DNA from: Deltaproteobacteria bacterium
GTDB taxonomy: Bacteria > Desulfobacterota > GWC2-55-46 > DRQE01
Direction: 5' to 3'
Length of the DNA stretch: 64,000 bases
Assembly: GCA_015492245.1 (NCBI GenBank)
Contig: WGFM01000012.1
Span: forward strand, 126,206-190,205
Under the pieces are notes generated by a model. The model was given only the letters and a program-made list of their open reading frames with translations. It did no database searches and was not told the DNA's origin. Both the position numbers and the translations under genes were made by a program. This document shows positions 15,259 to 36,399 of this stretch, in pieces. Within the stretch, counting starts at the first letter, position 1. Each line of letters begins with the position of its first letter.

Positions 15259-16011
15259 ATGGCAACAAAAAAGCCCCTTATACTGGTATCCAATGACGAT
15301 GGAATAATGTCTGAAGGTCTCAAGGCCCTTGAGACGGCACTGAAGAAGGTTGGCTCCGTGTATGTGGTTGCCCCTGACAGGGAGAGGTCTGCCTCGAGCC
15401 ACTCACTCACCCTCCACAGACCCCTGAGGGTGCAGAGACTGTCTGCCCGCCGCTATGCGGTGGATGGCACACCTACGGATTGTGTAACCCTTGCCATACA
15501 TGGTGGCCTGCTGTCAGGGAGACCGGATGTGGTGGTCTCTGGCATAAACAAGGGAGGCAACCTTGGTGAAGACATATCCTACTCAGGCACCGTATCCGCT
15601 GCCATGGAGGGAACCCTTCTGGGGATACCATCTGTAGCCATATCCCTTGTTGCAAAAAGAAGGTTTGACTTCCGGGAGGCCGCAGCCTTTGGCGTCAAGA
15701 TAGTGGGGCATGTGCTGAAGAAGGGGCTGCCAGCAGATACCCTCGTGAATGTGAATGTTCCTCATGGCAGAATCCGTGGCTACAGGATAACACGGCAGGG
15801 CAAACGCATATTCGGCGGAGATGTGGTGGTGGAGAAGACAGACCCCAGGGGAAAGAAATACTACTGGATAGGGGGAAACATGCTCAGGTGGGAAGGTGGT
15901 GAGGATACAGACTTTGCTGCAATATCCAGGGGTTACATATCCATAACCCCCATACACCTCGATATGACGAACTATTCAGCCATGAGTGAGCTGAGGTTCT
16001 GGAGGTTCTGA
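15259..16011 (+). CDS. surE: 5'/3'-nucleotidase SurE
   Basis: 'ILVSNDDGI', '[10 protein letters not shown]' and 'SGIN.G.N.G.D..YSGTV'. The start is moved to ATG 15259, which follows a Shine-Dalgarno-like 'AGGAGAG'. Confidence 0.9.
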
Positions 16012-16015
16012 CCCT

Positions 16016-16672
16016 ATGAGAGGAAAAGACATATACACACGGGCAAGGAAGACCATGGTGGAGAGCCAGCTCATCCCAAGGGGTATAAGGGACGAAAGGG
16101 TCATCTCTGCCATGCTCAAGGTTCCAAGACACCTGTTTGTGGACGAGGCCCTCATGGCCCAGGCATATAGCGACTACCCCCTGCCCATCGGAGAGGGGCA
16201 GACCATATCCCAGCCCTTCATGGTGGCATTCATGACAGAGGCACTGGGGCTTAGGGGCACAGAGAGGGTGCTCGAGATAGGCACAGGCTCGGGCTACCAG
16301 ACAGCCGTGGTGGCAGAGCTCTCGGGAAGGGTATATTCTATAGAGCGTATACCCTCCATAGCAGACAGGGCGAGAAAGACACTGGATAGCCTTGGCTATC
16401 CCAACATAGTCATAAAGATAGGCGATGGAACTCTTGGGTGGGAGGAAGAGTCCCCATTCGATGCCATACTGGTTACCGCAGGTGCACCCCAGGTGCCCCA
16501 CACCTACATGGAGCAGCTTGCAGAGGGTGGCAGACTCGTAATACCTGTGGGTGGTGAGTTCGTCCAGGAACTTATGAGAATAACGAAGAAGAAGGGAAGA
16601 ATCGAAAGGGAGAGCCTCGGTGGGTGCAGGTTCGTAAAACTTGTAGGCAGATATGGCTGGCAGGAAGACTGA
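16016..16672 (+). CDS. pcm: protein-L-isoaspartate O-methyltransferase
   Basis: 'TISQPFMVA' and '[11 protein letters not shown]' SAM motif. It lies immediately after surE. Confidence 0.92.
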
Positions 16673-16682
16673 AAAAGGATAG

Positions 16683-17261
16683 ATGCTTAAACGCCTGTAT
16701 AACTGGACACTCTCGTGGGCACACACACCCTACGGCTGGCAGGCACTGCTGGTGGTGGCATTCATAGAGGCGAGCTTTTTCCCCATACCACCCGATGTGC
16801 TCCTTGTAGCCCTTGCTGTGGCACTGCCCAGGAAGGCATTCTTCTATGCATGGGTCTCTTCAGTGGGCTCTGTTGCAGGGGGGGTGGCAGGCTATCTGAT
16901 AGGGCTTTACTTCATGGACATGATAGGGCAGATAATAATAGATACATACGGGCTCGAGGCAAGATACCATTACATACAGGACCTTTATAACAGATACGAC
17001 GCATGGGCAGTGGGTATAGCAGGTTTCACACCCATACCCTACAAGCTCTTTACCATAACGGCAGGTGCCTTTCGCATAGACTTTACCGTGTTCCTTATAG
17101 CATCTGCCGTGAGCAGAAGTGCACGGTTCTTCCTGGAGGCACTAATACTCTACAGATATGGCGATGCCATAAGGGAATTCATAGACAGATACTTCAATAT
17201 CATTACTGTGGTCATTGCCACGGTGCTTATGATAATAGTCCTTCTTCTCAAATGGTTGTGA
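16683..17261 (+). CDS. YqaA/DedA-family inner membrane protein
   Basis: Multi-TM protein with 'EASFFPIPPDVLL' and 'IPYKLFTI.AG' motifs typical of YqaA-like SNARE-associated proteins. Confidence 0.65.
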   Translation: MLKRLYNWTLSWAHTPYGWQALLVVAFIEASFFPIPPDVLLVALAVALPRKAFFYAWVSSVGSVAGGVAGYLIGLYFMDMIGQIIIDTYGLEARYHYIQDLYNRYDAWAVGIAGFTPIPYKLFTITAGAFRIDFTVFLIASAVSRSARFFLEALILYRYGDAIREFIDRYFNIITVVIATVLMIIVLLLKWL

Positions 17262-17728
17262 ACCTGAGAGACCTTCCCCTCATAGGGGTTGTAGGAAGCG
17301 GGGATGCCACAACCCGTCTCGAAGAGCTTGCCGAAGAGGTGGGTATGTGGATAGCCCACAGGGGGGCTGTGCTTGTAAATGGTGGGCTCGATGGTGTTAT
17401 GAAGGCATCTGCAAGGGGATGCAAGAGGCGGGGTGGGCTCACCATAGGGTTTCTTCCAGGCACATCCCGTAGAGATGCCAACCCCTATATAGACATTGCC
17501 ATACCCACCGGTATGGGAGACATGCGAAATATACTCATCGTGAGGGCATCAGTGGGGCTTATAGCCGTGGGTGGTGGGTACGGAACACTCTCTGAGATAG
17601 CCATAGCACTGAAGAACGGAAAACCTGTGGTGGGGCTTGATACCTGGAACCTGCCAGATGGTATCGTAAGGGCCAAAGACCCTGAAGAGGCTGTAGATGT
17701 AATACTCAAGACCACAAAAGATGCGTAG
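17252..17728 (+). CDS. TIGR00725-like (LOG/SLOG Rossmann-fold) protein
   Basis: 'IGVVGSG', 'VNGGL.GVM.A...G', 'GG.T.G..P' and 'GGGYGTLSEI' motifs. The track ORF 17003 overlaps yqaA out of context. In-frame ATG 17252 is preferred. Confidence 0.6.
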   Translation: MVVNLRDLPLIGVVGSGDATTRLEELAEEVGMWIAHRGAVLVNGGLDGVMKASARGCKRRGGLTIGFLPGTSRRDANPYIDIAIPTGMGDMRNILIVRASVGLIAVGGGYGTLSEIAIALKNGKPVVGLDTWNLPDGIVRAKDPEEAVDVILKTTKDA

Positions 17729-18398
17729 CCTTAAAGCCATAGCATGTGTGTTGAGCCTTGTAATCTTTCTGGCTGGCTGTGCCCCCAGAAGGGGGGTATA
17801 TCATACCGTAAGGAAAGGGGAGACCCTCTGGAGGATTAGCTACAAATACGGCGTTGATATAGAAGACCTGGCAGAGATAAATAACATAAAAGACCCATCG
17901 CGCATCAAGGCAGGCCAGAGGATATACATACCACGCACAAAAAAGGTCAAAAAGAGCAAGAAAAAATACCATACAAAGAGGATAACTAAAAAGAAGACGG
18001 CACAGAAGAGTCCCGCTGTGGCAAAGAAGGTTGAACTCATCTGGCCTGTTAAGGGTAGGGTCATATCGGGCTATGGAATGCGCGGAGATAGCATGCACAA
18101 GGGTATAGACATAAAGGCAAAGGAAGGCACACCAATCAGGGCTGCAGACCACGGAAAGGTGGTCTACGCAGATGATGGAATGCGTGGCTATGGAAATGTT
18201 ATCATCATAGAACACAGGAACAACCTGTTTACCGTATATGCGCACAACAGGAAGAACCTTGCAAGAAAAGGTGATGAAGTGAAGAAAGGGCAGATAATAG
18301 GCTATGTGGGGAATACAGGTAATGCTACTACTTCACATCTACATTTCGAGGTGAGGGATGGAAGCAAGGCGATAAACCCCCTTTTTTTCTTGCCCTGA
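17721..18398 (+). CDS. nlpD: LysM-domain M23 family peptidase (NlpD-like lipoprotein)
   Basis: Lipobox 'LAGC', LysM 'HTVRKGETLWRISYKYG', a Lys-rich linker, and M23 motifs 'HKGIDI' and 'GNTGNATTSHLHFEV'. Confidence 0.88.
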   Translation: MRSLKAIACVLSLVIFLAGCAPRRGVYHTVRKGETLWRISYKYGVDIEDLAEINNIKDPSRIKAGQRIYIPRTKKVKKSKKKYHTKRITKKKTAQKSPAVAKKVELIWPVKGRVISGYGMRGDSMHKGIDIKAKEGTPIRAADHGKVVYADDGMRGYGNVIIIEHRNNLFTVYAHNRKNLARKGDEVKKGQIIGYVGNTGNATTSHLHFEVRDGSKAINPLFFLP

Positions 18399-18423
18399 AA
18401 GATGTTTTATAGTATATTGAATC

Positions 18424-19392
18424 ATGTTCAAAAAGATTACACCCCCGATCCTCAGCATGGATTCGAAGAGTGAAAAAAAATATAACCCTATGGGTGGTAG
18501 GAAAGAAGAAAACATAGTAGCTGAGGATGGTGGCGTGGAAAAAGAGATCCTCGAGGAGCTTCCTGTCCCTACCGATTCCCTGAAGGCCTACTTCGATAGT
18601 ATAAAAAAATATCCACTTCTTACTGCAGAAGAAGAAAAATTCCTCTCCGAACGGATAGCCAGAGGCGATAGAGAGGCGAGAAAGAGAATGATAGAGAGCA
18701 ACCTTCGGCTTGTGGTGAATATTGCAAAGAGATACATGAACAGGGGACTGCCACTGCAGGACCTGATAGAGGAGGGCAACATAGGGCTTATAAGGTCTGT
18801 GGAGAGGTTCAAGGGATCTAAGGGATGCAAGTTCTCCACATACGCCACATACTGGATAAAGCAGAGTGTGGAAAGGGCCATAATGAACCAGGCACTCGCG
18901 GTAAGACTTCCCATACATGTAACCAACGATATATCCAAGATGAACAGGGTGAGAAGGGAGCTGAAAAAGGCCCTCAAGAGAGAGCCCACCCCGGTGGAGA
19001 TAGCCTCGCGTATGGGAGTGAGCGGCAGATACATAAAGAGGCTTTCCAACATAAGCCATAAGGTGTGCTCAATAGATGCCAGCCTCGGTGGGGATACAGA
19101 CGAGACACTGCTCGACAAACTGGAGGACACAAGATTCCCCGAGCCCATAGAACTTATGAGTGCAGAAATAAGGAGCAAGGAGATAGAAGAGTGGCTCTCT
19201 GTGCTCGATGAGAATGAGCGAAAGATAATAAGGTTGAGATTCGGTCTCGACTGCGAGCCAGAGACCCTCGAGAAGATAGGTAAACGCTTCGGGGTTACAA
19301 GAGAGAGGATACGGCAGATAGAGGCGAGGGCACTGAACAAACTGCGCCAGATAGTCAACAGCAAAAACATAGACTCTCTGGATTCCATCTAA
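18424..19392 (+). CDS. sigma-70 family RNA polymerase sigma factor (RpoS/RpoD-like, group 1/2)
   Basis: Region 2 'DLIEEGNIGLIRSVERF......KFSTYATYWIKQ', region 3, and region 4 'LEKIGKRFGVTRERIRQIEARAL'. Its position after nlpD matches rpoS synteny. The exact start is uncertain. Confidence 0.85.
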   Translation: MFKKITPPILSMDSKSEKKYNPMGGRKEENIVAEDGGVEKEILEELPVPTDSLKAYFDSIKKYPLLTAEEEKFLSERIARGDREARKRMIESNLRLVVNIAKRYMNRGLPLQDLIEEGNIGLIRSVERFKGSKGCKFSTYATYWIKQSVERAIMNQALAVRLPIHVTNDISKMNRVRRELKKALKREPTPVEIASRMGVSGRYIKRLSNISHKVCSIDASLGGDTDETLLDKLEDTRFPEPIELMSAEIRSKEIEEWLSVLDENERKIIRLRFGLDCEPETLEKIGKRFGVTRERIRQIEARALNKLRQIVNSKNIDSLDSI

Positions 19393-19421
19393 ATAAACAA
19401 CACATCGAGAGGTGAACCCCT

Positions 19422-19940
19422 ATGGTTGAGAAACTCAAAAGGGCTATAAGGGATGTGCCCGACTTCCCTAAGAAGGGAATAGTATTCAAGGACATAACCA
19501 CACTCTGCAGAGACCCACACTGTTTCCAGACGATGGTGGACTTTCTGGGACACCGTTATGTGGGAAGGAAGATAGACCTTGTCATAGGCATTGAGGCAAG
19601 GGGATTTGTAGTGGGATCGGCCCTTGCCTACAAGATTGGCGCAGGGGTGGTGCTTGTAAGAAAACCAGGAAAACTGCCCTGGAAGACCAGGAGTGCCTCT
19701 TACACACTCGAGTACGGCGAGGACTCCCTTGAAATCCACGAGGATGCCATAGAGAGGGGACAAAAGGTGCTCATAGCAGATGACCTTCTTGCCACCGGTG
19801 GAACAGCTCGTGCTGTGGTTGACCTCGTGGAAAAGCTCGGTGGAGAGGTGGTGGAATGCGCCTTCGTCATAGAGCTAAAAGACATTGGGGGAAGAGACAG
19901 GTTGTACCCCCACAATGTGTTCTCGCTCATACAGTTCTGA
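19422..19940 (+). CDS. apt: adenine phosphoribosyltransferase
   Basis: '[13 protein letters not shown]', 'IEARGF' and PRPP loop '[14 protein letters not shown]'. Confidence 0.93.
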
Positions 19941-19980
19941 TGGCACAGACCACACACGAGGGGGGAGAGGGAGAGTATCT

Positions 19981-20400
19981 TTACTTCTCAAGCTCCTTCT
20001 TGATATTGTCCAGAAGCTCACGGTAGATCGCCTTCACCATACCACCGGATAGGAGAGAGGCCAGTCTGTCTACCAGAGGGTTTCCTATCCTGTAGGTGAG
20101 CTCGAACTCTACAAGAGTGGATTCTCTACCCAGCGGGCTCAACAGGTATCTACCCCTGTTGTATACCCCACGGATCGACTGCCATCCAAAAAGCCTTGGT
20201 CTGTCAAACTCCACCACATCTGCCTCCCACTCAAGGGGTATACCCACAATCTCCACACTCCACAGATAGCGGCGAGGCCCTGTGCTACGAACATCCTTTA
20301 TGACACCAGAGAACCGCCTGAATCCTTCAACATCTGCTATGAGCTCGAATACCTCCTCCCGCGGGGCGTTTATCCTGAGTCTGTAAGATACAGTTCCCAT
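19981..20400 (-). CDS. SRPBCC (START/polyketide cyclase-like) family protein
   Basis: About 140 aa with the layout 'I.AP.E.VF.LI.D.E.F..F......V' typical of SRPBCC/CoxG-like proteins. Confidence 0.5.
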   Translation of the reverse strand: MGTVSYRLRINAPREEVFELIADVEGFRRFSGVIKDVRSTGPRRYLWSVEIVGIPLEWEADVVEFDRPRLFGWQSIRGVYNRGRYLLSPLGRESTLVEFELTYRIGNPLVDRLASLLSGGMVKAIYRELLDNIKKELEK

Positions 20401-20530
20401 AATCTGAAAAGGCTACATCTGGTAATACCACCGTGTCAAGTAAAAAATCTATTTACGCCGCCTAATAGCTTGACCTTTCCTGTGTAAAGTGGTAAAAAGA
20501 TATAAACACAAGGAAAGGAGAGTGAGGGGT

Positions 20531-20680
20531 ATGAGCAACGAATATCAGTGGGGACCACACCTTGGCGCAGTCTCCATGATGGGGCTCGTGGGGCTTGTTG
20601 TAAGTATTGTGCTTCTTTCCGAGTATTTTGACCAGCTCTTCAGGTTCGTAGAGCTTATGATGAAGTCATTGTTCGGCTAA
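20531..20680 (+). CDS. small hypothetical membrane protein
   Basis: ATG 20531 is preceded by 'GGAAAGGAGAG'. It has one hydrophobic helix ('VSMMGLVGLVVSIVLL'). No family was recognised. Confidence 0.3.
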   Translation: MSNEYQWGPHLGAVSMMGLVGLVVSIVLLSEYFDQLFRFVELMMKSLFG

Positions 20681-20693: not shown

Positions 20694-21215
20694 CTATTCC
20701 ATAATGAGGGAGTCCTTTCTCTTATCGAACCTTACGAGCACTATCCCCTGTGGCGGAAAGTTTACCATCTTCTTAAGCAAATAGGGCGGGCTGTTCTTAC
20801 CATCCTTAAGAGTTATCTTCACATTGTGCACACCCTTTTTGAGCAGAAACCTTTCGTATATGTATGAGGCACCGTCTTTTTTCAGTCCTACAGGCTGGTA
20901 TGTCTTCTCAAGCAGAATCTTTCCATCCACCACAAGGCGCAGTTCCACGGGGTATCGTTCTCTTGAGCAGCCTGTCTTCTCAAGGATCCCTATGTCCATC
21001 CTTACACCCTGTGTCTGTCTGTTTTCCCTGCGATACCGCTCGGCCTCTCTGAGGAGAAACCCTGCTTCATCGCACTCTTCGAGCCTTTTGCCCGAGTGCT
21101 TGAAGGCTATCTTGAGCATACTGTCAGAGGGTGCATAAAAGTGAAACTCTGCGGCAGAGAGCATGTATATGAGCACAAAGGGTATGGCAGATACAATGAA
21201 GGCTGCTATACGCAT
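20694..21215 (-). CDS. hypothetical membrane-anchored protein, last gene of the oxidase cluster
   Basis: N-terminal TM helix. The start overlaps the stop of the cytochrome b fusion gene by 10 nt. No motif was recognised. Confidence 0.5.
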   Translation of the reverse strand: MRIAAFIVSAIPFVLIYMLSAAEFHFYAPSDSMLKIAFKHSGKRLEECDEAGFLLREAERYRRENRQTQGVRMDIGILEKTGCSRERYPVELRLVVDGKILLEKTYQPVGLKKDGASYIYERFLLKKGVHNVKITLKDGKNSPPYLLKKMVNFPPQGIVLVRFDKRKDSLIME

Positions 21216-22735
21216 GGGGTGTTTTTGCCTCCGTCTCTGAGTTCTTCGGCAAAGTCTTCTATCTGCTGGCGGAACTCTCTCCGTGCTGTTTGTGGGAGAA
21301 AGAGCATCTTTATACGGTGGTCTCTGCCCACAGATGTCTTGAAAGAGGGGTGTCTCAGGCCACTGAATCTCAGTTTCAGGAGTTCGTCACCAGTTCTGTA
21401 GTGGCAGTCATTGGGAGCACATGCCGCTATGACCACCCCATCCACCCCTGCATCGAGGGCGATCTCTGCCATGGAGGGCTGCACCATACCACCACAGGGC
21501 ACTGTGAGCACCCTTGCCGTGAGGCCATCGAGATTGGCAGATGCATCCACACCCCAGCTGCAGGCAAACACCAGAAGAGTTGGCCCCTCTTTCGTGCCTG
21601 CCAGCTCCCTGGAGATGGCAAGTATCTGCTCCTTGAACTCCCTTTCTGTTAAGCCATCCATACTGATGGCATCGAACTCACAGGCTCCCACGCATATGCC
21701 ACATCCGGCACACCTTTCGGGAGAGACCAGGGCCTCGAGATTGAAGGGCTTTCCATCGCTCCTCCGTTGCATGTAGATGGCCTCATAGGGACAGTCGAAC
21801 ACACACTGCTCACAGCCTGTGCAGTTCTTCAGTATGACAGAGGCGGTGAGACCCTTTCTTGTCGGAAAAAGCCATGGAACGAGTGCAATCCCCACGGTTG
21901 CCACTATTATTATGAACCACATGGTGGGCACAGATAGGTGCTTGAGTGGTGCATACAGAAACATGAAGAACCAGTCCACATCCACAGTGGCAGGCAGGCT
22001 CTTAAGGTCTGCAGGGGGTTCAAGGCCTGCAGGAAACAGGATGGAGTAAAGGAGAAGTAACCCCAGGGTTGCAAGCCCTACCCTGAAAGGCGGGTTTATC
22101 CTTGCAGATGCAATCCTGCTGACATGCACCCACAGGAGTATGAAAAGGAAGACCGTGAGGGCAAAGTGCATTATGAAGAGTATGTAGAAGAATATGGCAT
22201 CCAGACTCCCGGCACCTGAAAAGTTTATGGAAAGAGGTTGTCCAAAGATGGGTATTCGCTCGAGCATCTCTGCAGAGAACAGGGCCACAAGCTGGGCCTT
22301 CCTGTCCCACACGAGCCAGTAGCCGAATATGCCACATATCCATACCATCCACAATATGAAGACCCCGCTTATCCATGCGAGTCTGCGCCAGCCACCATGG
22401 CGAGAGGTTATAAATGTCTTTGCAAGGTGAAGTAGCATCACTGTGACCAGAAGGTCAGAGCCGTAGCGGTGGAGGCTTCGCATGATACCCCCGAGCCACC
22501 ACTGCTCCTCTGTGAGATACCTTACAGACTCATAGGCGCCCTCTGGGTTTATCTTGTAGAATATGAACAGGTATATGCCTGTAAACAATGCCACCCATAT
22601 GAGAAACACACCGATGGAGTGGAGATGATACAGCGGATTGTTGCGGTATATCCTGTTGAGCAGGCCCTCAAGATGGAGCCACATCAGGTGGAACACCCCG
22701 AGGTGTTTATGTTCTGTCTCTACCCTGTCTTCCAT
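21206..22735 (-). CDS. fusion protein: di-heme cytochrome b domain + 2x[4Fe-4S] ferredoxin + MvhD/FlpD-like domain
   Basis: Two H-x13-H pairs in TM helices ('RSLHRYGSDLLVTVMLLH', 'MHFALTVFLFILLWVH'). Two ferredoxin motifs follow ('CTGCEQCVFDCP', 'CAGCGICVGACE'). The C-terminal part is MvhD-like ('LLVFACSWG', 'VPCGGMV', 'GVDGVVIAACAPNDCHY'). Confidence 0.8.
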   Translation of the reverse strand: MEDRVETEHKHLGVFHLMWLHLEGLLNRIYRNNPLYHLHSIGVFLIWVALFTGIYLFIFYKINPEGAYESVRYLTEEQWWLGGIMRSLHRYGSDLLVTVMLLHLAKTFITSRHGGWRRLAWISGVFILWMVWICGIFGYWLVWDRKAQLVALFSAEMLERIPIFGQPLSINFSGAGSLDAIFFYILFIMHFALTVFLFILLWVHVSRIASARINPPFRVGLATLGLLLLYSILFPAGLEPPADLKSLPATVDVDWFFMFLYAPLKHLSVPTMWFIIIVATVGIALVPWLFPTRKGLTASVILKNCTGCEQCVFDCPYEAIYMQRRSDGKPFNLEALVSPERCAGCGICVGACEFDAISMDGLTEREFKEQILAISRELAGTKEGPTLLVFACSWGVDASANLDGLTARVLTVPCGGMVQPSMAEIALDAGVDGVVIAACAPNDCHYRTGDELLKLRFSGLRHPSFKTSVGRDHRIKMLFLPQTARREFRQQIEDFAEELRDGGKNTPCV

Positions 22736-22738
22736 TGG

Positions 22739-23560
22739 CTACTTTTTCTGCACAGAGAATATCTTCGAGAAAAGTGTGCCCAGGGGTCTCCTGAACAATA
22801 CTATGAGTATTGCAGTTATCAGTATGATCTGCAACACAAAGCCCATGACCACCGGCCAGTTCAGAACAAAGGTGCCACTTACAGGGTCATACACCGTGCA
22901 GAGCTGTTTGAGCCTGTCGAGAAAAGTGGGCTCTGTCTCCATGGGTATGTTGCCTGTAAGGAGTTCCACGAGGGGGGTCCTTATGTCCTCGGGCTTGAGG
23001 TTGAATCCGTATACCTGTTTGTATATGGTTCCGTCTTCATCCACCACGCTCACCATGGTGAGATGGGTGAACCCATGGGTATCACGCTCTTTGTAGAAGA
23101 AACCGAACTCACGGGTGAGCCGTTCCATGGTCTGCCGGTCTGCGGTGGCAAACCTTATAAGCCCGGTGGAGTCAAGATGACGCTGGCTGTATGCCTTGAG
23201 TGCTGCAGGGGTATCACGCTCTGTATCAAACCCCAGGATGAGCACATTGAACCTGTCGCCCATCTCTTTTTTTACCTCTTTTACCGCCTCCATGAGTGTG
23301 GTGGTTATGAGCGGACATACATCGGTACAGTGGGTGTATACGAAGCTTACAAGAAGGGGTTTTCCCTGCCCAAAGTAGTCATGCAGATGGAACCCTACGC
23401 CATCCTGGTCTACAAGTTCGTAGTCGTGCAGTTTAACACCCTCTGCCCATTCTGCCTGGGTAACGGCCTTTCTGGCCACCTCTACACTTATGATCTCGGC
23501 ATGGGCGGTGTGCAGGGAGAAGAGGAGTATAAAGATATAGATAATATGGTTCACCATCAT
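22739..23560 (-). CDS. SCO1/SenC family copper chaperone
   Basis: Signal/anchor peptide, thioredoxin-fold 'LVSFVYTHCTDVCP' (CxxxC) and a downstream conserved His ('FTHLT'). Confidence 0.85.
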   Translation of the reverse strand: MMVNHIIYIFILLFSLHTAHAEIISVEVARKAVTQAEWAEGVKLHDYELVDQDGVGFHLHDYFGQGKPLLVSFVYTHCTDVCPLITTTLMEAVKEVKKEMGDRFNVLILGFDTERDTPAALKAYSQRHLDSTGLIRFATADRQTMERLTREFGFFYKERDTHGFTHLTMVSVVDEDGTIYKQVYGFNLKPEDIRTPLVELLTGNIPMETEPTFLDRLKQLCTVYDPVSGTFVLNWPVVMGFVLQIILITAILIVLFRRPLGTLFSKIFSVQKK

Positions 23561-23649
23561 ACCTCGGGTAGATTCAATTCATTATATCACAGACTGAAGG
23601 GAGGGTTCAACAGAGGGGAAGAGAGGGGCAAGCCCGTAGCTTACCCCTC

Positions 23650-23739
23650 TTACTTCCATGGAAGGATTACCATGACAAGTATGATGACAGTTGTTATAAC
23701 GCCTATCCATAATGGCCAGTTGAATCTTTGTTGTTCCAC
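23650..23739 (-). CDS. possible 29-aa one-helix peptide (not in ORF track)
   Basis: A GTG start lies 7 nt after 'GGAGGAGG'. The product is 'VEQQRFNWPLWIGVITTVIILVMVILPWK'. It is supported only by RBS spacing and hydrophobicity. Confidence 0.15.
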   Translation of the reverse strand: MEQQRFNWPLWIGVITTVIILVMVILPWK

Positions 23740-23756
23740 CTTTATTACCTCCTCCA

Positions 23757-23903
23757 TTATTCTACCCACCATACTTCTACGAGCCACTTGAAGTGGAGGA
23801 ACCAGAGCACCATAAAGACCACCAGGAATATGAGAGAAAGTGCGAGAGTGCCTGGCGCCTCTATCTTGTTGCGGTGTTCCTCGTCATCGTATTTGTCTGC
23901 CAT
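23757..23903 (-). CDS. small one-helix protein following oxidase subunit I (paralog 1), not in ORF track
   Basis: My hand translation is 'MADKYDDEEHRNKIEAPGTLALSLIFLVVFMVLWFLHFKWLVEVWWVE'. It has the same architecture and 'MAD + acidic N-terminus + TM' pattern as ORF 25991..26173. Confidence 0.45.
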   Translation of the reverse strand: MADKYDDEEHRNKIEAPGTLALSLIFLVVFMVLWFLHFKWLVEVWWVE

Positions 23904-23927
23904 GTTTCTCTTCCTCCTGTTTATGGT

Positions 23928-25433
23928 TTATGGTGCCACCCTTCTGCCAAATAGCGCAGAACCTATGATTACCACAACATATATTACACCAGCAAAAACG
24001 GCAAGAAGTGTTCCCAGTCCCATTATGCTCAGGAACATATCCACCGATGGGTCGAAGGTGAAGGAGAATGGAGCACCAGAGAATGTTATGTCCCAGTGCC
24101 TTCTGGGCACACCAAGGGCACCTGCGGCCATCATACCTATGGATACCATCGATACCCCTATGAAGTAGAGGTAGGGTTGCACAGATGCAAGCCTTGGCAT
24201 TATAAGCTCTCTTTTGAAGATATAGGGCATCAGCAGATAGGAGAATGCCATGAAGGCAAGTGTGGTGCCCACCACCACCGTGCCGTGGAAGTGTCCTGTT
24301 ATGAAGAAGGTGTTGTGCCTTATTATGTTGAACTGCTCTGTTCCTGCTATGACACCTGTGGTGCCACCAAGGAAGCCGAACCCTATTATGGAAAGAAATG
24401 TGCCAGAGAATGCCGGGTTGCCCCATGGTGCCTTCTTTAGCCACTCGAAGAGCCCGTTGGTGTAGCCCTTTTCCCTGAGTGCCACCTCCATTGAGGCAGG
24501 TATCGCGAAGGCGTGCACCATACTTGCAAACACCGCAAGGTGCATCACATAGCTTGTGTTTATTATCTTGTGCCAGTTGCTGAATATGGGGTCAACCAGC
24601 AGGTGATGCTCACTTGCCACATTTATGAAGAAGATGTAGAGCACGAAGGCCGTTCTTGAGAGCTTTTCGTTCACAGGCTTACCACCGAGAACGAAGGCAC
24701 TCACCATGTACCATGCAGCCACCATGGCACACACATTTATCTGCTGACTGGGATGACCGAGCCCCCAGAATATGAGCCTGTATGTGCCAGGGTCCAGGTA
24801 TTTTATAAGCCCTATGGACCACAGAAGGGTCGGTATCATTATTACCGCACCATGGGCAAGGGTAACCACAGCTATGATCGAGGCAGCGGCCATGCCGAAG
24901 GAGCCAAGGGGAAGTGAGTGCTTGTATGCCCCATCCCTTTTTGCCTGTATTATGTTTGCAAAGAAGTGGCCAAAGGCTGTGAGCGCACCCACTGCAAATA
25001 TTATCACACCCGTGTAGTACACACCGCTGGCCTTGAGAGGCACATAGGATGTGAAGAGCACATCGGCCTTACCTGCAAATGTGGTTATGTTTACGAAGAT
25101 GGCCCCTATCAACATCAACGAGTAGGCGATCCAGCCGGCAGACGGGATGACGGTTCTTGTGTTGAGAAGAACAGCCGAGGTGAAGTGCACAAGGGCGACC
25201 TCGAAGAAGATTATCCACACCAGCAGGGCATCAAACCCGTGTAGAGTAAGGTATCGGTAATAATATGTTGGATCAAGGTAGTGAACACTCGGCCAGCGTG
25301 TAATACCTATGAGGAGACCCATGAGACCTCCGAGGGTCAGGAACAGCACAGCGGTTATCACATTCCACTTTATAAGGTCCTCTGCTGGCTTGTGTATCTT
25401 AAGCCCTGTGAAGGAGCAAGTTCTGAATTCCAT
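23928..25433 (-). CDS. heme-copper oxidase superfamily subunit I, B-family-like, lacking the cross-link Tyr (paralog 1)
   Basis: Twelve or more TM helices. Conserved His: 'LTLHG' (low-spin heme), 'GLGHPSQQ' (CuB), 'SEHHLL' (CuB x2) and 'TGHFHG' (both hemes). The His spacing matches ba3-type enzymes. Confidence 0.85.
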   Translation of the reverse strand: MEFRTCSFTGLKIHKPAEDLIKWNVITAVLFLTLGGLMGLLIGITRWPSVHYLDPTYYYRYLTLHGFDALLVWIIFFEVALVHFTSAVLLNTRTVIPSAGWIAYSLMLIGAIFVNITTFAGKADVLFTSYVPLKASGVYYTGVIIFAVGALTAFGHFFANIIQAKRDGAYKHSLPLGSFGMAAASIIAVVTLAHGAVIMIPTLLWSIGLIKYLDPGTYRLIFWGLGHPSQQINVCAMVAAWYMVSAFVLGGKPVNEKLSRTAFVLYIFFINVASEHHLLVDPIFSNWHKIINTSYVMHLAVFASMVHAFAIPASMEVALREKGYTNGLFEWLKKAPWGNPAFSGTFLSIIGFGFLGGTTGVIAGTEQFNIIRHNTFFITGHFHGTVVVGTTLAFMAFSYLLMPYIFKRELIMPRLASVQPYLYFIGVSMVSIGMMAAGALGVPRRHWDITFSGAPFSFTFDPSVDMFLSIMGLGTLLAVFAGVIYVVVIIGSALFGRRVAP

Positions 25434-25450
25434 TTCAACACCTCCCTACA

Positions 25451-25978
25451 TTACTTCACATATAATTTGCCCACCATCATGTGATGGCCGAGTCCACAGT
25501 ACTCATTGCATACGATGTGATATTCTCCGCTTGTGGTTGGAGTAAGCGTTAAAACATAGTCATAATCCGGGAGGACCATGAAGTTCATGTTTATAGGCAG
25601 TATAGACATACCATGCACTATATCGAGTGAGTATACATGAATCCTGTAGGTCTTTCCCTTCTCCAGTTGCAGTATGGGATACCATTGCCACATGCTTGCC
25701 TGCAGGAACACATCCGAGCCAGGCTCTGGATGCACAACCGGTATGCCCTCCTCTTCACCTACCTTGTATTTCTCCACCATTGCATCCACAAGGGCTGTGA
25801 ACTGTTCTGGATTCCTGACCCTGTATGTCTCAAAGGGTGGATTCTGTTTGCCTATGAAGTGGTACACAGGCATGAATGTGAAGGTGGTGAGCATCCACAG
25901 GAGCGCCACAGCTACCCAGAATTTTTCATCCCATGTGTAGGGTTTCCACCAGATCCTTTCGGGTTCTTTTATCGCCAT
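25451..25978 (-). CDS. oxidase subunit II with CuA centre (paralog 1)
   Basis: One TM helix plus a cupredoxin domain, with 'DIVHGMS' and 'CNEYCGLGHHMM' (C-x3-C-x3-H-x2-M). Confidence 0.85.
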   Translation of the reverse strand: MAIKEPERIWWKPYTWDEKFWVAVALLWMLTTFTFMPVYHFIGKQNPPFETYRVRNPEQFTALVDAMVEKYKVGEEEGIPVVHPEPGSDVFLQASMWQWYPILQLEKGKTYRIHVYSLDIVHGMSILPINMNFMVLPDYDYVLTLTPTTSGEYHIVCNEYCGLGHHMMVGKLYVK

Positions 25979-25990
25979 CTTATCACCTCC

Positions 25991-26173
25991 TTAAGGACTG
26001 TATGAGGGAAGGTCAGGTATCTGCACTATCTCCATAAGCCCCCATACTGTATATACCAGGGTCGGCACTGCGACACCGAAGAAGAAAAGGAGCATTATAT
26101 TGTCATAAAACAACTGCCATGCAGGGATTGGCTCTTCTTCCTGTTCTTCTATTTTTCTTTCTTCGTCTGCCAT
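25991..26173 (-). CDS. small one-helix protein following oxidase subunit I (paralog 2)
   Basis: 'MADEERKIEEQEEE' acidic N-terminus followed by a TM helix. It sits between the two oxidase modules. Confidence 0.5.
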   Translation of the reverse strand: MADEERKIEEQEEEPIPAWQLFYDNIMLLFFFGVAVPTLVYTVWGLMEIVQIPDLPSYSP

Positions 26174-26212
26174 GGCTAAAACCCTCCTTCAGTTTGTGGT
26201 TTGTAATCCTCT

Positions 26213-27655
26213 TTACCAGCCTCTTAAAGGTTTTACCCTCTGCAATCTCGTGAGATACCTTGCTATCACCATGGTTACACCGAAGACCACTATCCATGCG
26301 AAGTATACCGCTATGGTGCTGTAGACCTCGGTTCCGGGCATCTGGACAGCATACCTGCGGGGTGTGCCGAATATCCCTGAGTACATGAACATGGCTGTAA
26401 CCCCGTAGGCACCGATTAACCATGTCCACAGGCCAACCCTGTCCTCGAAGGTGTCCGTGCATCCGCCGAGCTCTTCGGTAAGATGGTAGAGTGCGCCTAC
26501 AAATACGAATGATGCACCTGCAAGCAGATATGTGTGGAAGTGGCCGGGAACGAACATGGTGTTGTGGAACTGCTGGTTAAAGCCAGCATCCATGACTGCT
26601 GCAAAACCACCTATTGCCCATCCCATTAGCCCCAGGAAGAAGTAAAGGGGTGCCACACTCCACTTCATGCCGGACCTGTATACCAGTATCAATGAGCCTA
26701 TTATGGTAACCACCGTTGCGGGAAATGCCGCCATGTATGAGCCGAAGACACCTATTACCTGGAAGGCAAGTGGCTGCACAAAGTCCTGTAACAGATGGTG
26801 CAGATAGGCAAGGGTAACCGCTATGAATGCGGTGTTCCAGGATATGGCCACTATCTTGTTGGACTTCCATGGCCTTCCGGCATACCTTGGAAGAAGCTCA
26901 TAGACGATGGCTGCGCACATGTACATGACCATGTTCATGAGTATGTGGCCGAAGTAGTAGATGAGGTTCTTTATAAAGAGATAGTCTATGTAGTAGGATG
27001 GATTAGCCCAGTAGATGAGCTGCTGAACCACTGTAATGCTACCAGAAAAGAGCGCCATTATGCCACACAGGGCCGTTATCGTGGATATTATGACCACAGG
27101 AGGAGGCGCTGTGTCAGGTGTGTCGTTGCCCCATATGAGATTCCATCCCATAGAGCTTGCAAAACCGTATTTTCTCGAACAGGAGACCACGACATCACAC
27201 CATGCGATGAACATGGCTATTATGACGCACATGATAACCAGAAGGTAGAGGGCACCCGCCCACTCATCCCATGCTCCTGCCGATTTGAATGGCAGGGGGT
27301 AGAGATATGTCCAGCCAGAACCATAATAACCCATGAGCGTGCAGACAAGCAGTGAGACAACCGCTGCACCTATTATGCCGAACATTATCAACATGAGGTT
27401 CATGCTGAGCCGCACATGCTTGCTCAGCGCGTACCACATCAAGGCCGTTACACCTGTCATAAGAGAGCCCGCCACACCCACCGAATGAAGCGTAACGAAC
27501 TCGTAGAGAACATCCGGCCTCAGCTCTATGAAGCCACCCTGACTCGTTCTGGCTATTACTCCAAAGAAAAGTGTTGCACCATAAAGAACAATCGTGATTG
27601 CCCCTATGCCCAGAGCAATGCCAGCGGTTCTTCTCTGATAAAAAGAGTCAGTCAT
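26213..27655 (-). CDS. heme-copper oxidase superfamily subunit I, divergent, lacking the cross-link Tyr (paralog 2)
   Basis: Conserved His: 'VTLHS', 'YFGHILMN', 'AYLHHLL' and 'PGHFHT'. The spacing from the helix VI His to the HH pair is the same 49 residues as in paralog 1. Confidence 0.85.
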   Translation of the reverse strand: MTDSFYQRRTAGIALGIGAITIVLYGATLFFGVIARTSQGGFIELRPDVLYEFVTLHSVGVAGSLMTGVTALMWYALSKHVRLSMNLMLIMFGIIGAAVVSLLVCTLMGYYGSGWTYLYPLPFKSAGAWDEWAGALYLLVIMCVIIAMFIAWCDVVVSCSRKYGFASSMGWNLIWGNDTPDTAPPPVVIISTITALCGIMALFSGSITVVQQLIYWANPSYYIDYLFIKNLIYYFGHILMNMVMYMCAAIVYELLPRYAGRPWKSNKIVAISWNTAFIAVTLAYLHHLLQDFVQPLAFQVIGVFGSYMAAFPATVVTIIGSLILVYRSGMKWSVAPLYFFLGLMGWAIGGFAAVMDAGFNQQFHNTMFVPGHFHTYLLAGASFVFVGALYHLTEELGGCTDTFEDRVGLWTWLIGAYGVTAMFMYSGIFGTPRRYAVQMPGTEVYSTIAVYFAWIVVFGVTMVIARYLTRLQRVKPLRGW

Positions 27656-27667
27656 CGTCCACCTCCT

Positions 27668-28195
27668 CTATTTTACCTCGAATTCTGTCATCATTATGTG
27701 ATGAGCCAGTCCACAGTATTCAAGACACCATACCTCATACTTACCAGGCTCTGTGAAGTTCACATAGAGACGGTTCACATAATCTGGCATGGCCTGTGTC
27801 TGGGCTATAAGCCAGCCATCCTTGTAGATACCGAAACCATGGTTCACATCGTTTGCCATAACATCGAACCTGACCCAGCCCCTTGGAACTTCTGTCTCCG
27901 ACATGTCGAACATGAACTGACTCGACATAACCTTCACAACGAAGGGCTTGCCAGTTACCCTTGACTCCACTATCTGCGGATAGGGGAAGGAGTAGATACC
28001 CACACCAAACAGTAATATACTCACTATCAGGAGCCCCCAGAAATACTCCCTTCTCAGACGATAGCCCCTCTCGGTTACACTCTTATAGTCCTGCTGTGGC
28101 TGAGTCCTTGAACCGACCCACCAGAAGATAGCCGCAATGACCACGGTTGACACAAGTATGGATACCCCTACAAGTATTTGTATTGTGTGGGACAT
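27668..28195 (-). CDS. oxidase subunit II with CuA centre (paralog 2)
   Basis: Two N-terminal TM helices plus a cupredoxin domain, with 'DVNHGFG' and 'CLEYCGLAHHIMM'. Confidence 0.85.
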   Translation of the reverse strand: MSHTIQILVGVSILVSTVVIAAIFWWVGSRTQPQQDYKSVTERGYRLRREYFWGLLIVSILLFGVGIYSFPYPQIVESRVTGKPFVVKVMSSQFMFDMSETEVPRGWVRFDVMANDVNHGFGIYKDGWLIAQTQAMPDYVNRLYVNFTEPGKYEVWCLEYCGLAHHIMMTEFEVK

Positions 28196-28393: not shown

Positions 28394-28407
28394 TTGATAT
28401 ATGTCAA
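28394..28407. promoter_or_regulatory. CRP/FNR-family-like box TTGATATATGTCAA upstream of the oxidase cluster
   Basis: The sequence matches TTGAT-N4-(A/G)TCAA. It lies about 200 nt upstream of the first oxidase gene start (28195, minus strand). Confidence 0.35.
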
Positions 28408-36387: not shown

Positions 36388-36399
36388 TATGAGACGCAC

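What the first reader, a model, noticed from the sequence alone, without database searches (positions are those of the whole stretch)
20694..23560. Cytochrome b / 2x[4Fe-4S] / MvhD-like fusion protein co-operonic with SCO1 and the atypical oxidases
**Observation.** Directly after SCO1 (3-nt gap) lies a 509-aa protein with three fused parts:
- A bc1-type di-heme cytochrome b membrane domain, with two H-x13-H pairs.
- A two-cluster ferredoxin domain.
- A C-terminal MvhD/FlpD-like domain.

It is followed by an overlapping gene for an unknown membrane-anchored protein.

**Interpretation.** MvhD normally wires a group 3c hydrogenase to heterodisulfide reductase, and cytochrome b domains exchange electrons with quinones. 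A single polypeptide joining the two would link the quinone pool to a soluble FeS/flavin partner. No cytochrome c or cupredoxin donor for the CuA sites is encoded in the cluster, so this fusion is the only candidate electron-input module there. The window's only structural hydrogenase (57280-59333) lacks any MvhD or diaphorase partner, so a docking relationship is conceivable but purely speculative.
Basis: partly seen in the sequence, partly recalled or inferred. Interest (0 to 1): 0.7.

Follow-up and report, generated by a model that had tools for sequence, protein, structure and literature searches.

The report
Cytochrome b–FeS partner of eNOR
The 509-residue fusion is real and belongs to a widespread, uncharacterised family of Rieske-less two-haem cytochrome b proteins with an iron-sulfur tail, almost always encoded beside an eNOR-type nitric oxide reductase and probably wiring it to cell reductant.

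Summary
Window 21206-22735(-) encodes a 509-aa protein with three parts:
- a six-helix, two-haem cytochrome b;
- a 2x[4Fe-4S] ferredoxin domain;
- an MvhD-type [2Fe-2S] domain.

It lies 3 nt after SCO1 and overlaps by 10 nt a gene for a membrane-anchored beta-sandwich protein ("U173").

It is not an assembly artefact. At least 594 species genomes carry the same architecture.

In 80 diverse loci the order is almost invariant: CuA subunit, HCO subunit I, (haem O synthase), SCO1, fusion, U173. The subunit I always carries GH[S/P/G][S/A]QQ, the Gln-for-Tyr hallmark of eNOR nitric oxide reductases. The second window HCO has Asn there, which is sNOR-type.

Variant architectures point to a function:
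- U173 is fused in-frame to the fusion in 8 of 86 pairs.
- In some Betaproteobacteria the FeS/MvhD tail is replaced by [2Fe-2S]-FAD-NAD(P)H domains.
- In three Nitrospirota loci a NuoF-like gene sits next to the fusion.

My best reading is a dedicated transmembrane electron-input module for eNOR. This is inferred, not shown.

The proposed link to the window's hydrogenase is not supported.

Only one 2026 preprint mentions such genes, calling them "unusual".

The parts
21206..22735 (-). 509-aa fusion protein: cytochrome b, 2x[4Fe-4S] ferredoxin domain and MvhD-type domain
   Evidence: Pfam and NCBIfam hits. Ligands invariant in A1. AF2 model pLDDT 84.7. Foldseek matches bc1 cytochrome b.
21860..22735 (-). 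Cytochrome b domain, about aa 1-292. Six TM helices, haem ligands H89/H190 (P side) and H103/H204 (N side), and VDWF in the place of PEWY.
   Evidence: The gapless match of the ef loop to bovine cytochrome b is my own reading, using the bovine sequence from memory.
21656..21844 (-). 2x[4Fe-4S] ferredoxin domain, aa 298-360 (C305/308/311/315 and C342/345/348/352)
21233..21583 (-). MvhD/FlpD-type domain, aa 385-501, with four invariant Cys (392, 414, 439, 444)
20694..21215 (-). U173: 173-aa protein with one TM helix and a predicted periplasmic beta-sandwich. A conserved partner, sometimes fused to the C-terminus of the fusion protein.
22739..23560 (-). SCO1/SenC copper chaperone with a C-terminal TM helix
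   Evidence: Directly upstream of the fusion in 69 of 72 loci.
23928..25433 (-). HCO subunit I, eNOR-type (GHPSQQ: Gln at the cross-link Tyr position)
   Evidence: PMC8756737 Table A4.
25451..25978 (-). CuA subunit II of the eNOR-type enzyme (CNEYCGLGHHMM)
26213..27655 (-). HCO subunit I, sNOR/bNOR-type (GHILMN: Asn at the Tyr position)
27668..28195 (-). CuA subunit II of the sNOR-type enzyme (CLEYCGLAHHIMM)
23757..23903 (-). 48-aa ORF with one hydrophobic stretch, after eNOR subunit I
   Evidence: Small genes are called at the same place in L001, L003 and L005, and on the opposite strand in L004.
25991..26173 (-). 60-aa ORF with one hydrophobic stretch, after sNOR-type subunit I
   Evidence: A small gene is called at the same place in L001 and L003.
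28394..28407 (-). FNR/DNR-type box TTGACATATATCAA, about 200 nt upstream of the first gene of the cluster
   Evidence: Only match in the window. Similar boxes lie upstream of eNOR II in 19 of 60 loci, against about 1.5 expected.

Best explanation
The fusion protein, together with U173, is a dedicated redox partner of the eNOR-type nitric oxide reductase encoded just upstream.

Shown:
- It is a six-helix, two-haem cytochrome b of the bc1/b6 lineage.
- No Rieske or cytochrome c1/f gene is encoded in the window cluster or in the flanks I read in full.
- A Qo-type pocket motif is retained (xDW[F/Y] in place of PEWY).
- By topology, the C-terminal 2x[4Fe-4S] and MvhD-type [2Fe-2S] domains sit in the cytoplasm.
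- The gene is locked in the order eNOR II, eNOR I, (haem O synthase), SCO1, fusion, U173 across several bacterial phyla and proteobacterial classes.

Inferred:
- A cytoplasmic reductant delivers electrons to the MvhD-type cluster. This would be an NAD(P)H- or ferredoxin-linked partner.
- Electrons pass through the two [4Fe-4S] clusters to haem bH and cross the membrane to haem bL.
- They leave on the periplasmic side to the CuA site of eNOR. They go either directly, with the U173 beta-sandwich as docking adapter, or through a quinone held in the Qo-like pocket.
- This would let NO be reduced without a bc1 complex or soluble cytochrome c. That fits a window with no cytochrome c gene.
For: Architecture and ligands.

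Topology:
- Six TM helices.
- Lys/Arg are concentrated in the three short loops on the predicted cytoplasmic side (my reading).

Synteny in 80 diverse loci:
- SCO1 directly upstream in 69 of 72.
- U173 directly downstream in 74 of 77.
- An HCO subunit I at 45% identity or more in 51 of 52. Every such subunit I whose motif region lies inside the locus carries GH[S/P/G][S/A]QQ.
- The rule that Gln marks eNOR is from PMC8756737.

Rosetta-stone evidence:
- U173 is fused in-frame in 8 of 86 pairs.
- Direct cytochrome b + U173 proteins without any FeS part also exist.

Cytoplasmic input:
- A paralogue in the Gallionella locus L058 is Cytochrome_B + Fer2 + FAD_binding_6 + NAD_binding_1. tblastn shows the same tail in L056 and L075. 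From established knowledge of NqrF, Hmp and dioxygenase reductases, that module normally takes electrons from NAD(P)H.
- A NuoF-like gene lies between two fusion copies in L005, and NuoF-like sequence lies beside fusion copies in L039 and L046, all three Nitrospirota loci.

NO and denitrification context:
- narGHJI adjacent in L003.
- nirS and nosR nearby in the P0118 contig.
- A NirK-like gene in L005.
- FNR/DNR boxes enriched upstream.
- Hemerythrin genes adjacent or close by.

Expression: the Ferrigenium preprint reports the eNOR and both cytochrome b proteins in the proteome under denitrifying conditions.
Against: - No experiment bears on direction or partners.
- Purified two-subunit eNOR from R. 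marinus reduces NO with artificial donors, so the fusion is not needed for catalysis in vitro.
- I could not test whether eNOR operons without the fusion are common. The Ferrigenium authors regard such cytochrome b genes as unusual.
- A route from haem bL to CuA has no precedent, and U173 shows no conserved metal ligands.
- The retained Qo-like motif and the FeS-less cytochrome b + U173 variants fit a quinol-based role as well or better.
Confidence: 0.42

Rival explanations
1. Rieske-less, Q-cycle-like module. Quinol is oxidised at the retained Qo-type pocket. One electron goes to the CuA site of eNOR, which plays the Rieske role. The other crosses via haems bL and bH. It then reduces quinone at a Qi site, or leaves through FeS/MvhD (or FAD) to a cytoplasmic acceptor such as NAD(P)+. 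NO reduction would thus be coupled to making low-potential reductant. This is the idea sketched for Ferrigenium.
For: - Qo-pocket residues are invariant or nearly so across the family: Y139, W143, D144, D254, W255, F256.
- The ef loop matches bovine cytochrome b without gaps (my reading, bovine sequence from memory).
- Cytochrome b + U173 proteins with no cytoplasmic cofactor domain exist. They can only exchange electrons with quinone or a periplasmic partner.
- U173 has the overall layout of a Rieske subunit: an N-terminal anchor plus a periplasmic beta-sandwich.
- The Ferrigenium preprint proposes a quinol:NAD+ oxidoreductase supercomplex.
Against: - Sending an electron from a P-side quinol site to cytoplasmic FeS or NAD+ is uphill in redox terms and works against the membrane potential (my inference).
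- CuA has no group equivalent to the Rieske histidine that binds quinol.
- U173 has no conserved metal ligands. Only the Cys pair, two Arg, two Gly and an Asp are invariant or nearly so.
- Fer2-FAD-NAD modules usually act as NAD(P)H oxidisers.
Confidence: 0.22
2. Maturation factor rather than a working subunit. With SCO1 and haem O synthase, the fusion carries electrons from the cytoplasm to the periplasmic face. There they would keep copper, or the Cys of SCO1 and CuA, reduced during metallation. Alternatively they would support synthesis of the modified haem A of eNOR.
For: - The gene lies after the assembly genes (haem O synthase in 42 loci, SCO1 in 69 of 72), not next to the structural genes.
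- The trio SCO1, fusion, U173 occurs without an adjacent HCO in L012.
- A CopA-like Cu-ATPase lies beside the window cluster.
- eNOR contains an unusual haem A, and its synthesis under anoxia is an open problem raised.
- Two-haem transmembrane metal reductases are a known principle (established knowledge: cytochrome b561, Fre/NOX).
Against: - No homology to CtaA, TlpA, CcdA or DsbD-type factors was found.
- The protein was detected in the Ferrigenium proteome together with eNOR.
- A retained Qo-type pocket is not needed for such a role.
Confidence: 0.15
3. General cytoplasmic-donor:quinone oxidoreductase that is only co-regulated with eNOR. It would feed or drain the quinone pool under denitrifying conditions, with no physical link to eNOR.
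For: - The Qo-like pocket is retained.
- It is analogous to cytochrome b + FeS modules such as HdrED, QmoC and NarHI (established knowledge).
- NAD(P)H-linked variants exist.
Against: - Near-absolute operon linkage to eNOR and SCO1 across the phyla and classes sampled, with a 3-nt gap and a 10-nt overlap in the window.
- Extra fusion copies pair with a second, divergent HCO-like protein. That suggests a physical partnership with HCO-fold subunits.
Confidence: 0.1
4. The MvhD-type domain docks the window's [NiFe] hydrogenase (57280-59333), giving an H2-driven route to the HCOs.
For: - The hydrogenase has only two structural subunits here, with no diaphorase or MvhD gene beside it.
- The fusion carries the only FlpD domain found among the 17 window proteins I scanned against Pfam.
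Against: - The hydrogenase matches group 3b sulfhydrogenase alpha/delta (2.7e-71 and 9e-47) better than MvhA/G (7e-60 and 1e-30).
- It lies 34 kb away, next to a histidine kinase and a GGDEF protein.
- No hydrogenase gene was called in the flanks of the other loci I read in full. The remaining loci were not screened.
Confidence: 0.03

Closest known systems
Cytochrome b6 / cytochrome b of Rieske-cytochrome b complexes (b6f, bc1)
   Same: - Four-helix two-haem core with His pairs in helices B and D.
- The GYxLxWD motif.
- An ef loop of the same length, with a PEWY-like xDW[F/Y] motif.
- Helices E and F.
- Best sequence matches are cytochrome b6 chains (1e-30). Best fold matches are bc1 cytochrome b chains.
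   Different: - No Rieske protein or cytochrome c1/f gene nearby.
- Six helices instead of eight (or 4+3).
- A very short D-E loop.
- No Cys for haem cn.
- A cytoplasmic FeS/MvhD extension.
- Operon partner is an eNOR-type HCO.
MvhD, and the ferredoxin-domain + MvhD tandem at the C-terminus of HdrA2 (Mvh-Hdr complexes)
   Same: - Residues 295-501 match the last 200 residues of the HdrA2 model (2e-32).
- The four Cys of MvhD are conserved.
- The role is presumably the same: a short FeS wire between two redox modules.
   Different: - No HdrA flavoprotein part. The score is 112 bits against a cutoff of 1100.
- No HdrBC and no group 3c hydrogenase.
- The wire ends in a membrane cytochrome b.
Membrane cytochrome b + cytoplasmic FeS modules (HdrED, QmoC of QmoABC, DsrMK, NarHI)
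   Same: The working principle is the same: a two-haem membrane protein passes electrons between a quinone site and cytoplasmic FeS clusters. Qmo also contains an MvhD-like domain, in QmoB (established knowledge).
   Different: - Those use NarI/HdrE-type cytochromes b, a different fold from bc1/b6-type cytochrome b (established knowledge). No Nitrate_red_gam hit was found.
- They serve sulfur or nitrate metabolism, not an HCO.
The 'unusual' cytochrome b genes of the Ferrigenium straubiae eNOR operon (bioRxiv 10.64898/2026.01.22.701106)
   Same: - Same operon type.
- Their second gene (cytochrome b + [Fe-S]) corresponds to the family studied here. Their first corresponds to the Fer2-FAD-NAD variant that I confirmed in Gallionella locus L058.
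   Different: - The preprint treats them as peculiar to Ferrigenium and as marker genes. It does not describe the MvhD domain, the U173 partner or the wide distribution.
- It proposes electron flow from quinol to NAD+.
ExtP/ExtQ b-type cytochromes of the Geobacter selenite/tellurite reduction operon (NCBIfam NF040969 / NF040970)
   Same: A Rieske-less cytochrome b of b6 type with a subunit IV-like part. Residues 35-213 match ExtP (3.7e-28) and residues 224-299 match ExtQ (6.3e-06).
   Different: - Scores are far below the family cutoffs (98.8 against 290, and 26.5 against 150).
- ExtP and ExtQ are covered by separate NCBIfam models, with no FeS/MvhD domain in either model.
- The operon named in their descriptions is for selenite/tellurite reduction, not an HCO.

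Membership tests
Cytochrome b/b6 (Pfam PF00033) | Profile match above the gathering score | tested here: met
   67.2 bits against a cutoff of 27.2, residues 35-206
Cytochrome b/b6 (Pfam PF00033) | Two His pairs in helices B and D that bind haems bL and bH | tested here: met
   H89/H103 and H190/H204, both H-x13-H, invariant in 30 homologues
Rieske/cytochrome b complexes (bc1, b6f) | A Rieske iron-sulfur subunit and a cytochrome c1/f encoded with cytochrome b | tested here: not met
   No Rieske or cytochrome c family among the seven cluster proteins of the window or in the clusters of L001, L003, L004, L058 and L092. L003 and L005 have a cytochrome c gene within 10 kb, outside the core module. 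No credible CxxCH gene in the window.
Rieske/cytochrome b complexes (bc1, b6f) | PEWY (or PDWY/PVWY) Qo motif in the ef loop | tested here: inconclusive
   VDWF in the window and xDW[F/Y] in the family. D254 and F256 are conserved in 90% or more, and W255 is invariant. The Pro is lost.
Rieske/cytochrome b complexes (bc1, b6f) | Eight TM helices, or a split 4+3 arrangement | tested here: not met
   Six TM helices in the AF2 model
MvhD/FlpD (Pfam PF02662) | Profile match above the gathering score, with the four conserved Cys | tested here: met
   61.6 bits against a cutoff of 22.3. C392, C414, C439 and C444 are invariant and align with the Cys of 9sw2_D.
MvhD/FlpD (Pfam PF02662) | Association with a group 3c [NiFe] hydrogenase and/or an HdrA-type flavoprotein | tested here: not met
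   No hydrogenase or HdrA-type gene in the cluster or in the flanks read in full. The window hydrogenase is closer to group 3b.
2x[4Fe-4S] ferredoxin domain (Fer4_7 and related) | Two CxxCxxCxxxC motifs | tested here: met
   C305/308/311/315 and C342/345/348/352, all invariant
HdrA2 (NCBIfam NF040770) | Full-length match above the curated cutoff | tested here: not met
   112 bits against a cutoff of 1100. Only model positions 569-770 are matched.
ExtP (NCBIfam NF040969) | Match above the curated cutoff | tested here: not met
   98.8 bits against a cutoff of 290
eNOR family of HCOs (for the partner gene 23928-25433) | Gln in place of the cross-linked Tyr (GHxxxQ), with the other active-site His kept | tested here: met
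   GHPSQQ, EHH and GHFHG in the window protein. GH[S/P/G][S/A]QQ in every partner subunit I whose motif region lies in the locus. The criterion is from PMC8756737.
eNOR family of HCOs (for the partner gene 23928-25433) | CuA-binding subunit II | tested here: met
   CNEYCGLGHHMM in 25451-25978. Weak COX2/CoxB profile hits.
eNOR family of HCOs (for the partner gene 23928-25433) | NO reductase activity without O2 reductase activity; modified haem A in both haem sites | not testable with these tools
   Biochemistry exists only for R. marinus eNOR
sNOR/bNOR-type HCOs (for gene 26213-27655) | Asn in place of the cross-linked Tyr | tested here: met
   GHILMN. The criterion is from PMC8756737 Table A4. 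No phylogenetic placement was done.

The most novel reading that the evidence does not exclude
Cytochrome b, U173 and eNOR form a Rieske-less and cytochrome c-less supercomplex. Quinol oxidation at the retained Qo-type pocket is split. One electron goes to CuA and then to NO. The other is driven across the membrane into the FeS/MvhD (or FAD) tail to reduce a cytoplasmic low-potential acceptor. This would be a new kind of energy-converting, bifurcating NO reductase. It would also show that a bc-type Qo site can work with a partner other than the Rieske protein.
Probability: 0.1. Interest if true: 0.9.

Novelty: new variant of a known kind. Interest (0 to 1): 0.62.

Why it matters
eNOR-type enzymes are a sizeable share of the NO reductases found in genomes and metagenomes. 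Murali et al. 2024 count 547 GTDB genomes and 2,709 metagenome hits. These enzymes produce the greenhouse gas N2O.

How they receive electrons in vivo, and whether they conserve energy, is unknown. Only artificial donors have been used.

A conserved, operon-locked two-haem cytochrome b with a cytoplasmic FeS/MvhD or flavin tail is the obvious missing piece. It would define a route to NO reduction that needs no bc1 complex or cytochrome c, and it links that step to the cell's NAD(P)H or ferredoxin pool.

It is also a natural case of a bc1/b6-type cytochrome b that keeps its Qo-type pocket but has no Rieske partner. That bears on how Rieske/cytochrome b complexes evolved.

In practice, public records label these genes 'hydrogenase iron-sulfur subunit' or 'cytochrome b N-terminal domain-containing protein'. 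[quoted passage not shown] The module is therefore invisible to denitrification surveys.

Tried and rejected
- **Sequencing-error fusion: rejected.** The same single-ORF architecture occurs in at least 798 proteins and at least 594 species genomes.
- **AOB 'orf1': unresolved.** I tried to find out whether the 'orf1' of the ammonia-oxidiser norSY-senC-orf1 cluster is this protein. The papers read do not describe orf1. The only Nitrosomonadales locus found (L075) has the Gallionella-type arrangement.
- **Murali et al. 2024:** the main text does not mention the fusion, and no supplement is held.
- **U173 as a cupredoxin- or Rieske-like redox subunit: considered unlikely.**
  - Foldseek finds only generic beta-sandwiches, best E-value 8.5e-3.
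  - In 67 diverse homologues, only G110 and D114 are invariant, and C48, C83, R85, R87 and G128 are conserved in 90% or more. The two His are below 90%.
  - There is no twin-arginine signal.
  - I read the Cys pair as a disulfide around the inserted helices.
- **Word-index search with U173:** it returned only 6 relatives. The exhaustive profile search was needed and gave 585 representatives.
- **Cofactor distances:** these could not be measured, because the AF2 coordinates are not exposed to the script environment.
- **Association tested from the eNOR side: not achieved.** The single-protein scan returned only close relatives.
- **Promoter and terminator scan of the cluster:** promoter-like sites were at chance level (10 found, 10.9 expected). 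Terminator-like sites were about twice the shuffle mean (13 against 6.1). None was followed up.

Full report
**1. What is at the coordinates**

The minus strand of window 20694-28195 carries a tight gene row:
- CuA subunit, 27668-28195.
- HCO subunit I of 480 aa, 26213-27655.
- A 60-aa ORF with one hydrophobic stretch, 25991-26173.
- CuA subunit, 25451-25978.
- HCO subunit I of 501 aa, 23928-25433.
- A 48-aa ORF with one hydrophobic stretch, 23757-23903.
- SCO1, 22739-23560.
- The 509-aa fusion, 21206-22735.
- A 173-aa protein I call U173, 20694-21215.

SCO1 and the fusion are 3 nt apart. The fusion and U173 overlap by 10 nt.

Pfam places three domains in the fusion, all above the gathering scores: Cytochrome_B at residues 35-206, two Fer4 motifs at 304-358, and FlpD at 388-500.

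NCBIfam adds two points. Residues 295-501 resemble the ferredoxin-plus-MvhD tail of HdrA2 (2e-32, far below that family's cutoff). Residues 35-213 and 224-299 resemble ExtP and ExtQ, also below their cutoffs.

**2. Cofactor sites and topology**

In an alignment of 30 homologues at 37-78% identity, these residues are invariant:
- The four haem His (H89, H103, H190, H204).
- All eight Cys of the two CxxCxxCxxxC motifs.
- Four further Cys (392, 414, 439, 444).

The last four align with the conserved Cys of a solved MvhD chain, 9sw2_D.

The AlphaFold2 model is confident, with pLDDT 84.7 and pTM 0.83. It has six transmembrane helices at 34-59, 79-109, 117-142, 180-208, 217-233 and 269-289.

Both termini therefore lie on the same side. 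Arg and Lys cluster in the loops at 110-116, 209-216 and 290-297, so that side is the cytoplasm. This is where FeS domains without an export signal must be.

Sequence search of the PDB finds cytochrome b6 first (1e-30). Fold search finds bc1 cytochrome b over about 290 residues, that is helices A-F.

The stretch PADLKSLPATVDVDWFFMFLYAPLKHLSVPT lines up without gaps with the bovine ef loop. VDWF stands where PEWY does. This is my reading, with the bovine sequence taken from memory.

In the family, D254 and F256 are conserved in 90% or more and W255 is invariant, as are Y139, W143 and D144. So the Qo-type pocket looks preserved.

The Cys that binds haem cn in b6 is absent, and the D-E loop is very short.

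**3. The family and its neighbourhood**

The same architecture is found in at least 798 database proteins. They are named, if at all, 'hydrogenase iron-sulfur subunit' or 'cytochrome b N-terminal domain-containing protein'.

These span:
- 'Deltaproteobacteria' and Thermodesulfobacteriota MAGs.
- Nitrospirota.
- Alpha-, Gamma- and Zetaproteobacteria.
- Betaproteobacterial lineages: Gallionella, Polaromonas, Nitrosomonadales and Burkholderiales MAGs.

I searched the 80 retrieved loci with the window's proteins:
- SCO1 is directly upstream in 69 of 72 loci with enough flank.
- U173 is directly downstream in 74 of 77. The three exceptions have it after a paralogous copy.
- An HCO subunit I with at least 45% identity to the 501-aa window protein is present in 51 of 52.
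- Haem O synthase lies between subunit I and SCO1 in most of the 42 loci where it was found.

Every such partner subunit I whose motif region lies inside the locus has GH[S/P/G][S/A]QQ.

According to PMC8756737, Gln at the position of the cross-linked Tyr defines eNOR, and Asn defines sNOR. The window's 501-aa HCO (GHPSQQ) is therefore eNOR-type, and the 480-aa HCO (GHILMN) is sNOR-type.

Only the eNOR-type enzyme is the conserved partner. The sNOR-type pair recurs in the closest relatives, for example L003.

**4. Context points to nitrogen-oxide respiration**
- narGHJI abuts the cluster in L003.
- nirS, nosR, apbE and a Crp/Fnr regulator lie nearby in an alphaproteobacterial contig.
- A NirK-like gene and a cytochrome c gene precede the cluster in L005.
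- Hemerythrin genes are adjacent in two contexts and about 1.5 kb downstream in a third.
- The only TTGAY-N4-ATCAA site in the 64-kb window lies about 200 nt upstream of the first gene.
- Such boxes occur within 350 nt upstream of eNOR II in 19 of 60 loci, against about 1.5 expected from their density in all the loci.

**5. Variant architectures**

(a) U173 is fused in-frame to the C-terminus of the fusion in 8 of 86 pairs. This explains the roughly 690-aa homologues.

(b) In the Gallionella locus L058, a paralogue placed directly after SCO1 is Cytochrome_B + Fer2 + FAD_binding_6 + NAD_binding_1. It is followed by a U173-like gene, a divergent HCO-like gene, and then a cytochrome b-2xFer4-FlpD gene. 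tblastn shows the same Fer2-FAD-NAD tail in L056 (Polaromonas) and L075 (Nitrosomonadales).

(c) In the Nitrospirota locus L005 a NuoF-like flavoprotein gene lies between two fusion copies. NuoF-like sequence also lies beside fusion copies in L039 and L046.

(d) Two representatives, P0156 and P0229, are cytochrome b + U173 with no FeS/MvhD part.

(e) PMC8756737 lists one Chloroflexi ORF that combines a cytochrome c domain with cytochrome b6, FeS and FlpD domains.

The constant core is thus the two-haem cytochrome b plus U173. The cytoplasmic tail is exchangeable, and in two lineages it is explicitly NAD(P)H-linked.

**6. U173**

The AF2 model (pLDDT 86.9) shows an N-terminal TM helix and a beta-sandwich with an inserted helical hairpin.

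No solved structure matches significantly, and no Pfam or NCBIfam family matches.

An exhaustive profile search finds 585 representative clusters.

By topology the sandwich is periplasmic. In the fused forms it follows a TM helix after the cytoplasmic MvhD domain.

Across 67 diverse members, G110 and D114 are invariant, and C48, C83, R85, R87 and G128 are conserved in 90% or more. I read the Cys pair as a disulfide and see no conserved metal site. U173 is more likely an adapter than a redox centre.

**7. Literature**

Murali et al. 2024 define eNOR and show NO reduction by the purified R. marinus enzyme with TMPD and ascorbate. They do not mention these genes.

A 2026 preprint on Ferrigenium straubiae notes two 'rather unusual' cytochrome b genes in its eNOR operon. 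It reports the proteins in a proteome and speculates on a quinol:NAD+ oxidoreductase supercomplex.

My survey shows the genes are not peculiar to Ferrigenium. They are a general companion of eNOR in many lineages.

A complete RefSeq plasmid record from Defluviimonas sp. SAOS-178_SWC carries the module under generic names.

**8. Mechanism**

Shown:
- The domains, ligands and topology.
- The operon lock to eNOR, SCO1 and U173.
- The NAD(P)H-linked variants.
- The denitrification context.

Inferred, as my best reading (0.42): a cytoplasmic reductant feeds the MvhD-type cluster. Electrons run through the two [4Fe-4S] clusters, haem bH and haem bL to the periplasmic side. From there they reach the CuA site of eNOR, directly or via a quinone in the Qo-like pocket. 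NO reduction would then not depend on bc1 or cytochrome c.

The direction rests on the usual role of Fer2-FAD-NAD and NuoF modules and on thermodynamics.

Rivals:
- A Rieske-less Q-cycle or bifurcating scheme (0.22). It is favoured by the conserved Qo motif and the FeS-less variants. It is disfavoured by energetics and the lack of a redox centre in U173.
- A maturation role with SCO1 and haem O synthase (0.15).
- An independent quinone reductase that is merely co-regulated (0.10).
- The hydrogenase link (0.03). The window hydrogenase is closer to group 3b and only two structural subunits are encoded there. It lies 34 kb away beside a histidine kinase.

**9. Limits**
- The association was tested only from the fusion side.
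- I could not establish how many eNOR operons lack the module.
- I could not measure cofactor distances, because no coordinates were available.
- I could not model complexes.
- The window's organism is an uncultured lineage. Its nearest records are labelled 'bacterium' or 'Deltaproteobacteria bacterium' and come from groundwater MAGs.

**10. Verdict**

This is a real, conserved and essentially uncharacterised membrane redox module. It is built from known domains in a new combination and sits in a well-defined, environmentally important context. I rate it a new variant of a known kind, interest 0.62.

Noticed in passing
L058 8173-9585; L005 12632-14065; also L017, L032, L033, L039, L045, L046, L047, L049, L056, L060, L072, L073, L075, L083, L084: A divergent HCO-like protein of about 470 aa. 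It keeps GGGHxLQF and AHYHG but lacks the HH pair of active-site metal ligands. It is encoded next to extra copies of the fusion and, in L058, directly after a U173-like gene. In L005 it is followed by a CbbQ/NorQ-like ATPase gene and a short SCO1 gene.
   Followed up: partly
window 28394-28407 (-): FNR/DNR-type box TTGACATATATCAA in the AT-rich intergenic region upstream of the cluster. It is the only such site in 64 kb. Similar boxes are enriched upstream of eNOR II in related loci (19 of 60).
   Followed up: yes
window 25991-26173 (-) and 23757-23903 (-): Two small ORFs (60 and 48 aa), each with one hydrophobic stretch, one after each HCO subunit I. Small genes are called at the same places in related contigs. 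They may be extra small HCO subunits.
   Followed up: partly
window 57280-59333 (-), with 55541-56902 (-) and 54343-55482 (-): A two-subunit [NiFe] hydrogenase closest to group 3b sulfhydrogenase alpha/delta. No beta or gamma subunit genes lie beside it. A histidine kinase and a GAF-GGDEF protein follow. A sensory role is conceivable.
   Followed up: partly
window 31149-33806 (+) and 38500-40506 (-): A CopA-like P-type ATPase with YHS and HMA domains lies on the opposite strand upstream of the cluster, separated from it by two pabB/pabC-like genes. A second P-type ATPase lies further on.
   Followed up: no
window 34822-36387 (+) and 36001-38000: A 521-aa ORF with no Pfam match, next to a stretch where G+C drops to 0.41 against about 0.51 elsewhere.
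   Followed up: no
P0156 (458 aa) and P0229 (465 aa), from the representative library: Proteins that join the six-helix cytochrome b directly to the U173 TM helix and beta-sandwich, with no FeS or MvhD domains.
   Followed up: partly
L092 (Defluviimonas sp. SAOS-178_SWC plasmid NZ_CP156080.1, record 13852-20598): A complete RefSeq plasmid carries the whole module. [quoted passage not shown]
   Followed up: yes
L012 6511-10063: A TetR-family gene followed by SCO1, the fusion and U173, with no HCO gene in the 8 kb upstream. On the opposite strand upstream lies a row of large ORFs (502, 659, 111, 308 and 146 aa) that I did not identify. This is the one clear exception to the eNOR linkage.
   Followed up: partly
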